From the IMG/VR virus record IMGVR_UViG_2541047122_000015: DNA of 12,595 nt. One strand, written 5' to 3'. Position numbers: made by a program. The stretch's first letter is position 1; every line of letters begins with the position of its first letter. Of the stretch, positions 6,001-9,000 are shown piece by piece. This stretch comes from a virus (Duplodnaviria; Heunggongvirae; Uroviricota; Caudoviricetes).

Positions 6001-9000
6001 AACGCCATAAATGCCAGCCACGCAGCACAGCTTGCTAAGATACTGAATGTAAAGGTCGGAGATTTCAGTCCCAGCCTGGCAAAATCTATTGCAGAAATGG
6101 CGCTCGCAATTGAAGAGCCATTAACTCGTGTCCCCGCTTACGAATATCCGTTACTCTCCTGCGTACAAGCTGGCGCATTCTCAATGGATGATATTTCGTA
6201 CACCGCAAAAGATGCGATTAAATGGATCTCCACCACCACAAAAGCCAGTGACAGGTCGTTCTGGCTGGAGGTCAAGGGGCATTCAATGACCGCACCGCAG
6301 GGTGGTAAACCCAGCTTCCCTGAAGGTATGCTGATACTCGTTGACCCTGAACGGGAAATCGAGGATGGCGATTTTTGCGTGGCCCGAATGAACGGCGATG
6401 AATTTACCTTCAAACGATTCATTCGTGAGAGCGGTAAAGCGTACCTGGAGCCGCTCAACCCACGATTCGACATGATTGAGTGTAACGAAAACTGCCAGTT
6501 TGTCGGAAAGGTCATCAAATCGCAGTGGAATGATGAGACTTTTGATTGAGCTCACAGAGTGATTTGACATCCTTCACGCCTGAAGAATGTGGAGGATGTC
6601 AAAAGCACGTTGGCATCATCATGCCACGTAAAGAGGATTAGTTATGCTTCAAAAGCTAGACGTCGCAGACAGCGTGCGTCGCGAGCTGTCTCCCCGTACC
6701 GCGCGTAAACACAAAGCTGAGTTCGGCCAGTTCATGACGCCTTCTGGCGTGGCCCGTTTTATGGCCTCCTTGTTTCCACCGAGCACAATGAAAACTTGCC
6801 GTCTACTGGACGCAGGCGCTGGTGTAGGCGCACTGTCTTGCGCCTTCCTCGACCGTTGGCTGGTTGGCGAGTTTGGCTTTGAGTCTGTCGAGGCAACAGC
6901 CTACGAAATCGACAAAAAGCTGTGTGGTCACCTTGCGAAGCACTTAACCGGGTACAGGAGAGTGACGCCCCGCATCATCGAAGGGGATTATATTGAGCTG
7001 GCAACCGCCGAAGGTCTACAGGATCGAGGTTATACCCATGCAATACTTAATCCGCCTTACAAGAAGATCAATAGCCAGTCAGCCCACCGGCAGGCTCTTC
7101 GCACTGTCGGTATCGAGACGGTAAATCTGTATTCCGCCTTTGTTGCACTGGCTGTAGGTGAGGTTGCACCTGGCGGGCAGATAGTGGCCATAATCCCACG
7201 TAGTTTCTGCAACGGACCGTATTACCGTCCGTTCCGTAATTTCATACTTGAACGGGCAGCAATCCGCCATATTCATTTGTTCGAATCACGTAGCAAAGCT
7301 TTCAGGGATGACGATGTGTTGCAGGAAAATATTATCATCCGCCTGGAGCGTGGAGGCCGTCAGGAGGCTGTTACAGTCACAACTTCGACCGATGATAGCT
7401 TTTTTGACCTGGTCACCTACGAACACCCATTTGACCAGATTGTGTACCCGGACGATTCAGAGCGGTTTATTCATGTGCCGACCACGCTCGAGAAAAGCGC
7501 CATTGAGTTATCATCTGCCGTACAATATTCGCTGGCTGATATTGGCGTGAAGGTATCGACCGGACCGATAGTTGATTTCCGACTGAAAGCTCATTTGCGC
7601 AGCATGCCAGAAGAAGGAACTGTTCCCCTGATCTACCCGAGCCATTTGAGTATGAGTAGCACTGTCTGGCCTGTGGAAGGTTTGAAGAAACCCAATGCAA
7701 TCATGCGCAACGACGAGACAGAAAAGTGGCTTTACCCGAACGGTTTTTATTGTGTGGTGCGTCGTTTCTCGTCGAAGGAGGAAAAGCGCCGAGTGGTAGC
7801 AAGCGTCGTTGATCCTGCTACCTTCAGTGAGTATTCAGTGTTGGGATTTGAAAATCACATGAACGTGTTTCATGAGAACAAACATGGGTTACCCGAGGCG
7901 CTGGCCCGTGGCTTGGCCGTGTTCCTGAACACTACCGCAGTGGATAAGTATTTCCGTCGCTTCAACGGGCATACACAGGTCAATGCAACCGACCTCAAGA
8001 TGATTAAGTACCCAAGCCGTGACACTCTGATAGAGCTTGGCAAGTGGGCTATGCAACAAGAAACTCTCACGCAAGAACATATTGACGCTAAGCTAGGAGC
8101 TCTGACTGCATGAACAACCAAAATGATTATATTGAGGCCGCTCAGCAAATTATAGCATCCTTAGGCCTGCCCAGAGCGCAGCAGAATGAGCGTTCTGCTT
8201 TGTGTTTGCTGGCACTCCTGAACCTCACACCGGGAAAAGCATGGGCCGACGCGGAAAATCCGCTTGTGGGCATTACACCAATCATGAATTGGGTTCGGGA
8301 GCACTACGGCAAGGTCTACGCACCCAATACTCGTGAGACATTCCGCCGCCAGTCTATGCATCAGTTCTGCGCTGCTGGAGTAGCCCTCTACAATCCGGAC
8401 AAGCCCGATCGCCCAGTGAACAGCCCGAAGGCTGTTTATCAGATCGAACCTGCTGCTCTGTCCATGCTACGCACTTTCGGCAGCCCGGCATGGCACGATA
8501 GCCTTGCAACCTATTTAGCCGAGCGTGAAACGCTGGTTACCCGCTATGCTAAGGAGCGCGAACAGAATCGTATCCCTGTTGAAATTGCTGCGGGCCAGCA
8601 AATAACCCTCAGTCCCGGCGAGCACAGCGAACTTATCCGTGCCATAATAGAGGACTTCGCCCCACGTTTTGCTCCGGGTAGCGTGCTGGTCTATGCTGGC
8701 GACACTGGCGAAAAGTGGGGCTACTTCGACGCTCCACTGCTGGCCGGGCTAGGTGTTGATGTGGATTCACACGGTAAAATGCCAGATGTGGTGCTACATT
8801 TTACTGCGAAAAACTGGCTGCTACTGGTTGAGTCTGTCACCAGTCATGGACCGGTTGATGGGAAGCGGCATGCTGAGCTTGCCAGGCTGTTTGCCGGATC
8901 AACAGCCGGACTTGTCTATGTGACCGCTTTTCCAAATCGCTCCATCATGGGGCGATATCTTGGTGAAATCGCATGGGAAACAGAGGTATGGGTGGCTGAT

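What the first reader, a model, noticed from the sequence alone, without database searches (positions are those of the whole stretch)
6550..6643. Structured cI-to-methyltransferase spacer: long imperfect inverted repeat plus a palindrome abutting the Shine-Dalgarno
The 94-nt spacer holds a 15-bp inverted repeat (6563-6577 with 6589-6603, 14 of 15 positions pairing) that itself contains TTGACA, and a second palindrome TGGCAT-CATC-ATGCCA (6611-6626) 4 nt before the methyltransferase Shine-Dalgarno. Neither is followed by a U-tract, so they are unlikely to be simple terminators. They may set the ratio of cI to R-M expression, act as an RNase III or processing site, or be an operator for autoregulation. 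How R-M expression is controlled in this cassette, which has no C-protein, is an open question.
Basis: seen in the sequence. Interest (0 to 1): 0.45.

Follow-up and report, generated by a model that had tools for sequence, protein, structure and literature searches.

The report
Two inherited hairpins at cassette joint
The gap between the phage repressor gene and the methyltransferase gene is a recombination joint: one hairpin is a copy of a little-known hairpin family scattered over enterobacterial phages and plasmids, and the other sits in a leftover end of a recombinase gene that travelled with the restriction-modification cassette.

Summary
The long one is far beyond chance; the short one is not, taken alone.

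The window is the immunity region of an Stx2a prophage of the P13374/TL-2011c/PA2 type, carrying the PstI-like R-M system EcoGIII.

Hairpin 1 (6563-6603) is not specific to this cassette. It belongs to a dispersed family of about 40-nt palindromic hairpins. The family has a conserved foot, TTGACATCCTCC...GGAGGATGTCAA, and a covarying top. Copies lie at the ends of unrelated genes on enterobacterial phages and plasmids. No Rfam family matches.

Positions 6603-6643 are the last 12 codons and stop of a resolvase gene that sits directly upstream of M in the closest non-phage cassettes. Palindrome 2 (6607-6629) is a hairpin kept there through compensatory changes, followed by the native Shine-Dalgarno.

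Homology to the donor cassette runs from 6603 to 9071, starting exactly at the foot of hairpin 1.

Neither hairpin is an operator, a C-box or a canonical terminator.

Their functions are inferred only. Hairpin 1 is probably an RNA 3'-end barrier or processing element. Hairpin 2 probably tunes M translation, and R translation through coupling.

The parts
5836..6549 (+). cI-type repressor gene (HTH_3 + Peptidase_S24), upstream transcription unit
6563..6603 (+). Hairpin 1: arms 6563-6577 and 6589-6603, loop 6578-6588. A somewhat degenerate copy of a dispersed palindromic hairpin family of mobile elements.
   Evidence: A covariance model built without window-type copies scores it 41.9 bits on the - strand and 35.3 bits on the + strand, E about 1e-10 and 1e-8.
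6603..6641 (+). Relic of the 3' end of a serine-recombinase (resolvase) gene. It reads KHVGIIMPRKED*, against ...LYKHVGVITPRQ* in intact donors.
6607..6629 (+). Hairpin 2: ACG-U-UGGCAU / CAUC / AUGCCA-CGU, -9.8 kcal/mol. Conserved with compensatory changes at the resolvase-M junction.
6633..6637 (+). Shine-Dalgarno GAGGA of the methyltransferase, 6 nt before the ATG at 6644. In donors it overlaps the resolvase stop codon.
6644..8113 (+). Methyltransferase (M.EcoGIII type, CTGCAG)
   Evidence: PMC6602927
8110..9063 (+). BsuBI/PstI-family endonuclease. Its start overlaps the M stop (ATGA).
6603..9071 (+). Extent of nucleotide homology to the non-phage res-M-R cassette (Thauera plasmid pLG356), i.e. 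the imported cassette
9082..9103 (+). Canonical hairpin plus T-tract terminator, just outside the right edge of the cassette. Homology to hicAB-type phages resumes at 9085.

Best explanation
The spacer is a recombination joint that holds two independent RNA-type hairpins.

Shown:
1. Hairpin 1 (6563-6603) is a copy of a dispersed family of about 40-nt palindromic hairpins on enterobacterial phages and plasmids. Family members usually sit right at gene ends.
2. In this window it lies 14 nt after the cI stop codon, and its 3' foot is the exact left edge of the imported cassette.
3. Positions 6603-6643 are the tail of a resolvase gene that precedes M in the donor cassette. This tail carries a hairpin kept by compensatory substitutions (6607-6629) and the native ribosome-binding site of M.

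Inferred:
1. M and R have no promoter of their own in the spacer and are read through from the cI transcript.
2. Hairpin 1 acts on that transcript as a 3'-end barrier or processing structure. It would stabilise or uncouple the cI part without stopping read-through.
3. Hairpin 2, which ends 3 nt before the Shine-Dalgarno, belongs to M's translation-initiation region and sets how much M is made. R follows through the overlapping ATGA.
For: Context: the window is 99.5-100% identical to Stx2a phages P13374, TL-2011c and PA2, with the gene order cro, cI, M, R.

Hairpin 1 belongs to a family:
- The same hairpin, with a different loop, follows cI in E. coli G8, where M and most of R are replaced.
- Copies about 90% similar lie 3' of trbC on IncI-type plasmids and on another plasmid.
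- A pattern scan of viral contigs returned more than 20 independent copies in unrelated flanks.
- 94.8% of cells pair. The inner stem was not part of the search pattern and shows compensatory changes.
- G.U wobbles in the inner stem fall on the strand whose loop reads TTYA.
- A covariance model built without window-type copies hits the window hairpin at E about 1e-10. It finds no other copy in the window, in the donor cassettes or in hicAB-type phages.
- The neighbouring proteins are unrelated to one another.
- In about half of the copies, the TGA or TAA inside the foot is the stop codon of the upstream gene.
- A group II intron 5' end abuts the foot in 6 contigs.

Resolvase relic:
- A full 189-aa resolvase ends 9 nt before the M start codon in 7 genomes whose M is 84-88% identical.
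- Nucleotide homology to the donor cassette runs from 6603 to 9071.

Hairpin 2:
- 89% of cells pair. Four pairs show changes on both sides: TGGCAT/ATGCCA, CGGCGT/ACGCCG and GCGGCGC/GCGCCGC.
- Some of these changes cost amino-acid replacements in the resolvase (V to I, T to M).
- Resolvase remnants of 89, 29 and about 12 codons all keep hairpin 2.

Expression:
- No promoter-like site was found in the spacer.
- CTGCAG is 100% methylated in a lysogen carrying this phage type (PMC6602927; strain 95NR1 is hit H34).
Against: - No function was measured, so every mechanistic step is inference.
- The window's copy of hairpin 1 is degenerate: -22 kcal/mol against -39 for canonical copies.
- Its loop orientation is inverted relative to the G8 copy, so it may be a passive passenger.
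- Family hairpins occur in both orientations relative to their flanking genes. That weakens a strictly RNA-level reading.
- Perfect DNA palindromes can also be maintained by template-switch correction, without any selection.
- The covariation for hairpin 2 rests on 19 sequences and about 4-5 independent events. On the larger alignment, 3 of 500 shuffles reached the observed covariation score.
- The more than 130 phage copies are about 99.5% identical overall, so their conservation says nothing about constraint.
Confidence: 0.6

Rival explanations
1. Passive scars. Both hairpins are inherited passengers of the recombination that placed the cassette here and do nothing for cI or R-M expression in this phage.
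For: Hairpin 1 is a weakened copy (-22 against -39 kcal/mol) with an inverted or altered loop. Hairpin 2 lies in a dead gene fragment. Taken alone, palindrome 2 is at chance level. The phage copies are too similar to one another to show constraint.
Against: Independent resolvase truncations of different lengths all keep hairpin 2 and the Shine-Dalgarno. L154, another truncated context, lengthens the stem to 11 bp. In the E2863-type phage, 95.5% identical overall, neither the arms of hairpin 1 nor the 6-bp arms of palindrome 2 changed. The only differences are an extra C in the hairpin 1 loop, one G-to-T change outside the hairpins, and C6627-to-A in the 3-bp extension of hairpin 2.
Confidence: 0.25
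2. Hairpin 1 is a partial transcription terminator or attenuator. It would set the cI:R-M ratio by stopping a fraction of pRM transcripts.
For: The hairpin lies 14 nt after the cI stop codon. Family copies sit at operon ends and between convergent genes. Group II introns that insert after terminator stem-loops (Robart et al. 2007, as cited in PMC3522654) abut the family hairpin.
Against: There is no U-tract, and the scan did not call it as a terminator. E. coli intrinsic termination normally needs a U-tract (established knowledge). CTGCAG is fully methylated in lysogens, so read-through must be substantial.
Confidence: 0.2
3. Hairpin 1 is an RNase III (or other) processing site. It would separate the cI and M-R messages and give them different stabilities, like lambda sib or the T7 inter-gene sites.
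For: Canonical family copies are perfect 18-20-bp helices with tetraloops. That is the size class of RNase III substrates (established knowledge). One copy sits on the stop codon of an integrase gene, which recalls sib retroregulation.
Against: The window's copy has only 16 pairs, two of them G.U, and a 9-nt loop. No cleavage data exist. Copies occur in both orientations.
Confidence: 0.15
4. The palindromes are DNA operators for a protein such as cI, Cro, the methyltransferase or the endonuclease.
For: Both are dyad-symmetric. R carries an N-terminal HTH-type domain. Some methyltransferases autoregulate through operators (established knowledge).
Against: The motif shared by oR and oL is absent from the spacer. 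Hairpin 1 recurs next to unrelated genes with no common neighbouring protein. The arms of palindrome 2 change sequence while keeping complementarity, although M is 84-88% conserved. G.U wobbles favour a single-strand structure.
Confidence: 0.05

Closest known systems
REP/BIME extragenic palindromes of enterobacterial chromosomes
   Same: They are imperfect palindromes of about 35-40 nt. They lie just after gene ends and often between convergent genes. They form stable RNA hairpins. REPs are known to protect upstream mRNA, and those close to stop codons affect translation termination (established knowledge).
   Different: The sequence is different and lacks the 5' GTAG. No RAYT transposase lies nearby. 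Copy number is low, with a median of 1 per E. coli genome that has this variant. Copies are confined to plasmids and prophages: 282 plasmid and 215 chromosomal places. The foot often contains the stop codon itself.
Terminator-like stem-loops used as homing sites by bacterial class C group II introns
   Same: An intron 5' end (GTGCG..., Rfam D1-D4 hits) starts immediately after ...GGAGGATGT in six viral contigs.
   Different: The hairpin has no T-tract. The intron's class was not determined, and the L038 copy lacks a long reverse-transcriptase ORF. No intron is present in the window.
Integron attC sites
   Same: Both are hairpins with a conserved foot and a variable top. In this window the hairpin sits exactly at the edge of an imported gene cassette.
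   Different: The foot sequence is TTGACAT...ATGTCAA, not RYYYAAC...GTTRRRY. There are no extrahelical-base features, no integron integrase, and no second site at the other end of the cassette.
Structures near the ribosome-binding site at gene junctions in operons (translational coupling or insulation)
   Same: Hairpin 2 ends 3 nt before the Shine-Dalgarno of M. In donors, the upstream ORF's stop codon overlaps that Shine-Dalgarno and lies 9 nt before the M start codon. M and R overlap by ATGA.
   Different: The hairpin does not sequester the Shine-Dalgarno. In the phage the upstream ORF is gone, so any coupling role must have changed.
C-protein/C-box control of type II R-M systems
   Same: Both concern the timing of M and R expression in a mobile type II system.
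   Different: There is no C gene and no C-box. The gene order is M then R with overlapping stop and start codons, inherited from a res-M-R unit.

Membership tests
Dispersed mobile-element hairpin family (TTGACATCCTCC...GGAGGATGTCAA), defined here | Significant score against a covariance model built from canonical copies only, with window-type copies excluded | tested here: met
   Window 6561-6605 scores 41.9 bits (E 3.6e-10) on the - strand and 35.3 bits (E 4.5e-08) on the + strand.
Dispersed mobile-element hairpin family (TTGACATCCTCC...GGAGGATGTCAA), defined here | Conserved 12-bp foot, paired variable top, and position just after a gene end | tested here: met
   The foot differs at one position (a T.G pair). 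The top is shortened, with a 9-nt loop. The hairpin lies 14 nt after the cI stop codon.
Intrinsic (Rho-independent) terminator | GC-rich hairpin followed directly by a U-tract | tested here: not met
   Neither hairpin is followed by a T-run on the + strand. The scan calls only 9082-9103 downstream of R.
C-protein-controlled R-M system | A small HTH C gene with C-box palindromes upstream of C/R | tested here: not met
   There is no ORF between cI and M or between M and R. M and R overlap. Pfam finds only cI, Cro, M and R.
cI/Cro operator | Shares the repeated motif of oR and oL | tested here: not met
   oR and oL share CACCGCA-type sites, and none occurs in 6550-6643.
REP/BIME | High chromosomal copy number, 5' GTAG, RAYT association | tested here: not met
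   The median is 1 place per genome, and places are on plasmids or prophages. No GTAG is present. No recurrent neighbouring protein was found.
Integron attC | R''/R' boxes RYYYAAC...GTTRRRY, and cassette arrays with an integrase | tested here: not met
   The foot sequence differs. The window holds a single copy. No integron integrase lies nearby.
Rfam families (release 15) | Match at or near the gathering score | tested here: not met
   Only sub-threshold microRNA-precursor-like hits to a generic hairpin were found. Canonical copies matched nothing.
Sigma-54 promoter (for palindrome 2, TGGCAT-N5-TGCCA) | GG and GC elements at the fixed -24/-12 spacing (TGGCAC-N5-TTGCA) | tested here: not met
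   By inspection, the GC lies one base too close to the GG. The consensus is recalled from established knowledge.
RNase III processing site | Cleavage by RNase III in vivo or in vitro | not testable with these tools
   Only helix length can be judged: 16 bp in the window and 18-20 bp in canonical copies.
res-M-R cassette junction hairpin (hairpin 2) | Homologous position in the last codons of the resolvase gene, with pairing kept by compensatory change | tested here: met
   89% of cells pair and 4 pairs changed on both sides.

The most novel reading that the evidence does not exclude
Hairpin 1 may represent an undescribed class of junction hairpins on enterobacterial phages and plasmids. Such hairpins would act as hot spots where foreign cargo is joined. 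In this window the R-M cassette starts exactly at the hairpin's foot. In G8 a different cargo starts at the same foot, after a switch inside the loop. In six contigs a group II intron is inserted three bases upstream of that point. The hairpins could spread or be exchanged by recombination between copies, or by intron retrohoming with co-conversion of the 5' exon. That would make them a recombinase-independent analogue of attC-type cassette capture.
Probability: 0.12. Interest if true: 0.8.

Novelty: new variant of a known kind. Interest (0 to 1): 0.45.

Why it matters
EcoGIII is the R-M system of the Stx2a phage of the 2011 O104:H4 outbreak strain and of many O157 and non-O157 EHEC. It is reported to methylate every CTGCAG in the host, to restrict lambda-like phages and to affect expression of about 1,950 genes (Fang et al. 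2012, as cited in PMC6602927).

Three things follow from the cassette having arrived as a truncated res-M-R unit fused behind cI at a pre-existing hairpin:
- It explains why the cassette has no promoter or C protein of its own.
- It ties toxin-free maintenance of the system to lysogenic cI transcription.
- It gives two small, defined RNA structures to mutate when asking how M and R levels are set.

Separately, the hairpin family is a recurring feature of phage and plasmid gene ends that is not in Rfam. It may deserve a proper census.

Tried and rejected
- Rfam scans of the spacer and of canonical family copies found nothing real.
- A full-text search for the foot sequence returned only primer coincidences.
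- Searches for literature on mosaic-boundary hairpins found nothing relevant, and a paper on prophage sRNAs that the intron search turned up proved irrelevant.
- No promoter was found inside the spacer. The TTGACA in each arm lacks a -10 element at 16-18 nt, and TTGGCA at 6610 has only GAGGAT at 17 nt.
- A sigma-54 reading of palindrome 2 fails on spacing.
- A boxB reading of the loop was rejected. The E2863 variant has GCCCTGAAGAA, which resembles lambda nutL boxB from memory, but no closing stem is present and the location is wrong.
- No common neighbouring gene, such as a transposase, RAYT or integrase, was found for the family.
- I tested whether synteny breakpoints fall at the hairpin in a P22-like prophage. 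They lie about 110 nt away, so the junction idea rests on the window and G8 only.
- The hairpin after cI in hicAB-type phages is AT-rich and followed by a U-rich tail, but the terminator scan does not call it, so I do not rely on it.
- The right-arm-only scan mostly returned unrelated coding matches (VEDV).
- The Fang et al. 2012 paper could not be fetched.

Full report
**Context.** The window is the immunity region of an Stx2a-converting lambdoid prophage. It is 99.5-100% identical to P13374 (O104:H4), TL-2011c, PA2, VT2phi_272 and about 120 E. coli chromosomes. The gene order is as follows:
- cro on the - strand, 5537-5776
- cI, 5836-6549
- a methyltransferase, 6644-8113
- a BsuBI/PstI-family endonuclease, 8110-9063, whose start overlaps the M stop
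- a canonical hairpin plus T-tract terminator, 9082-9103

This is the EcoGIII system (CTGCAG). In lysogen 95NR1, which carries this phage type (hit H34), 2434 of 2434 CTGCAG sites are methylated (PMC6602927). M is therefore well expressed in the prophage state.

**Checking the observation.**
- Hairpin 1 pairs at 14 of 15 positions, and the mismatch is a G.U wobble on the + strand.
- It is the only inverted repeat of that quality in the window, with 0.01 expected per simulated window. It folds to -22 kcal/mol with z = -5.8.
- Palindrome 2 extends to a 9-bp stem with one bulge, 6607-6629, at -9.8 kcal/mol.
- Alone it is at chance level: 6 such palindromes occur in the window against 3.4 expected.
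- Neither hairpin has a downstream T-tract on the + strand, and no promoter-like site lies in the spacer.

**Hairpin 1 belongs to a dispersed family.**
- Phages with the same cI but other cargo diverge about 5 nt before the hairpin (hicAB types).
- E. coli G8 keeps the hairpin with a different loop. There, window positions 6578-8746 are replaced by other DNA.
- BLAST with the spacer alone found the hairpin at about 90% identity on plasmids, just 3' of trbC and next to an unrelated gene.
- A pattern scan of viral contigs then gave more than 20 independent copies. Their consensus is TTGACATCCTCC, a 7-8 bp GC-rich variable stem, a TTTA or TTCA loop, and GGAGGATGTCAA.
- The outer stem was fixed by the search pattern, but the inner stem was not. 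Overall 94.8% of cells pair, with compensatory changes at four pairs.
- In the inner stem, about ten G.U pairs fall on the TTYA-loop strand and no A.C pairs do. This favours a single-stranded structure (RNA or ssDNA).
- A covariance model built without any window-type copy scores the window hairpin at 41.9 bits on the - strand and 35.3 bits on the +. It finds no second copy in the window and none in the donor cassettes.
- Canonical copies fold to -39 kcal/mol, so the window's copy is a weakened one.

**Family context.**
- The flanking genes are unrelated: integrase, capsid, tail fibre, primase, terminase, a dCTP-deaminase-like gene, ccdB and trbC. No protein family recurs next to the hairpins.
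- In about half of the copies, the TGA inside TTGACA is the stop codon of the upstream gene. In variants it is the TAA of TTAACA. Sometimes this holds on both strands between convergent genes.
- In E. coli genomes one variant occurs in 453 of 5426 genomes. The median is one copy per genome, with 282 places on plasmids and 215 on chromosomes.
- In six viral contigs a group II intron 5' end (GTGCG, Rfam D1-D4 hits) starts right after ...GGAGGATGT. This is the behaviour described for class C introns that home to terminator-like stem-loops (PMC3522654). I did not determine the intron's class.
- Rfam 15 has no matching family, and a text search for the sequence found nothing relevant.

**Palindrome 2 is inside a gene remnant.**
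- I fetched 80 loci encoding M relatives and read their upstream regions.
- In the closest ones (M 84-88% identical), a 189-aa serine recombinase ends 9 nt before the M start codon. These come from Gallionellaceae, a Thauera plasmid, Aquabacterium, Aeromonas, Pseudomonas, Pseudoxanthomonas and Serratia. The recombinase has Resolvase and HTH_7 domains.
- Window positions 6603-6641 align to its last codons: KHVGIIMPRKED* against LYKHVGVITPRQ*.
- Nucleotide homology to the Thauera cassette runs from 6603 to 9071. It starts at the 3' foot of hairpin 1, with a few bases of microhomology, and stops just before the terminator.
- The imported unit is therefore a truncated res-M-R cassette lying between two hairpins, in the slot that lambda uses for rexAB.

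**Conservation of hairpin 2.**
- The palindrome is conserved in these relatives while its arm sequence changes. The forms seen are TGGCAT/ATGCCA (window and L154), CGGCGT/ACGCCG (most relatives) and GCGGCGC/GCGCCGC (L127). Other loops occur in L181 and L371.
- On 12 sequences, and then on 19 after a metagenome scan anchored outside the hairpin, 89% of cells pair and four pairs changed on both sides.
- On 12 sequences, 0 of 500 shuffles reached the observed covariation score. On 19 sequences, 3 of 500 did.
- Some compensatory changes cost amino-acid replacements in the resolvase.
- Remnants of 89, 29 and about 12 codons all keep the hairpin and the Shine-Dalgarno.
- I rate this as moderate evidence for a structure tied to M expression.

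**What the hairpins are not.**
- cI/Cro operators: the oR/oL motif is absent from the spacer.
- C-boxes: there is no C gene.
- Intrinsic terminators: there is no U-tract.
- A sigma-54 promoter: the spacing is off by one base.
- attC or REP elements: the defining features are not met.

**Likely mechanism (inferred).**
- M and R are transcribed by read-through from cI.
- Hairpin 1 acts as a 3'-end barrier or processing point on that transcript. It cannot be an efficient terminator, because methylation is complete in lysogens.
- Hairpin 2, which ends 3 nt before the Shine-Dalgarno, tunes M initiation, and R follows by coupling.
- The main rival is that both hairpins are passive passengers of the recombination event.
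- Partial termination, RNase III processing and a role as a cargo-joining hot spot remain open.

**Verdict.** Two results stand out. First, the origin of the cassette joint is explained. Second, there is a small hairpin family specific to mobile elements that is absent from Rfam and from the papers I could search.

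Noticed in passing
window 6578-6588; loci L063, L071, L120, L121: In some Stx phages an A-to-C change in the hairpin 1 loop (CCTGAAGAAT to CCTGCAGAAT) creates CTGCAG, the recognition site of the adjacent R-M system.
   Followed up: no
window 2741-2746: CTGCAG occurs only once in the 12.6-kb window, against 3.96 expected from shuffles. This is mild avoidance of the phage's own restriction site.
   Followed up: no
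L032 526-811; L038 8460-8844; also L017, L064, L067, L083: A group II intron 5' segment (Rfam RF02001 and RF01998) begins with GTGCG directly after the family hairpin's 3' arm. The L038 copy shows no long reverse-transcriptase ORF and no D5/D6 hit, so it may be truncated.
   Followed up: partly
L108 1180-1230 (HK97, 3' of tfa); L109 (VT2-Sakai); L110 1180-1228 (H-19B, about 40 nt upstream of stx1A); L219 (IncI2 mcr plasmid): These are 'half' copies of the hairpin. The right arm and top are intact, but the left foot is replaced by TTATCCGGTGCGCCGTAAAAC or a similar sequence. The same about 50-nt unit recurs in unrelated contexts, including just upstream of the stx1 promoter region.
   Followed up: partly
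L138, L139, L140, L144, L164 (res-M-R loci): The resolvase upstream of M is 95-100% identical across Gallionellaceae, a Thauera plasmid, Aquabacterium, Pseudoxanthomonas and Pseudomonas. This suggests a recently and widely mobile res-M-R unit.
   Followed up: partly
L002 3551-4700 and L004 (hicAB phages); L001 5608-6458 (E2863): The slot between cI and the terminator before oL holds alternative cargo in sister phages. One type carries a hicAB toxin-antitoxin pair plus a small ORF. In E2863, a Panacea-domain gene pair is added after R.
   Followed up: no
L218 1498-1543: On plasmid pEC25-1 the stop codon of an annotated ccdB gene lies inside the foot of a family hairpin.
   Followed up: no
window 6525-6536 with 6616-6627: The last codons of cI (GTGGAATGATGA) are 11/12 complementary to the loop and 3' arm of hairpin 2. 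This alternative pairing is not part of the minimum-free-energy fold.
   Followed up: partly
window 4892-4957 and 10464-10508: Two other inverted repeats occur in the window: 25 nt at 76% complementarity and 19 nt at 74%.
   Followed up: no
window 6626-6611, - strand: Read on the - strand, palindrome 2 is followed by ACGTGCTTTT, and the scan flags it as terminator-like. No - strand promoter was found inside M that would make this meaningful.
   Followed up: no
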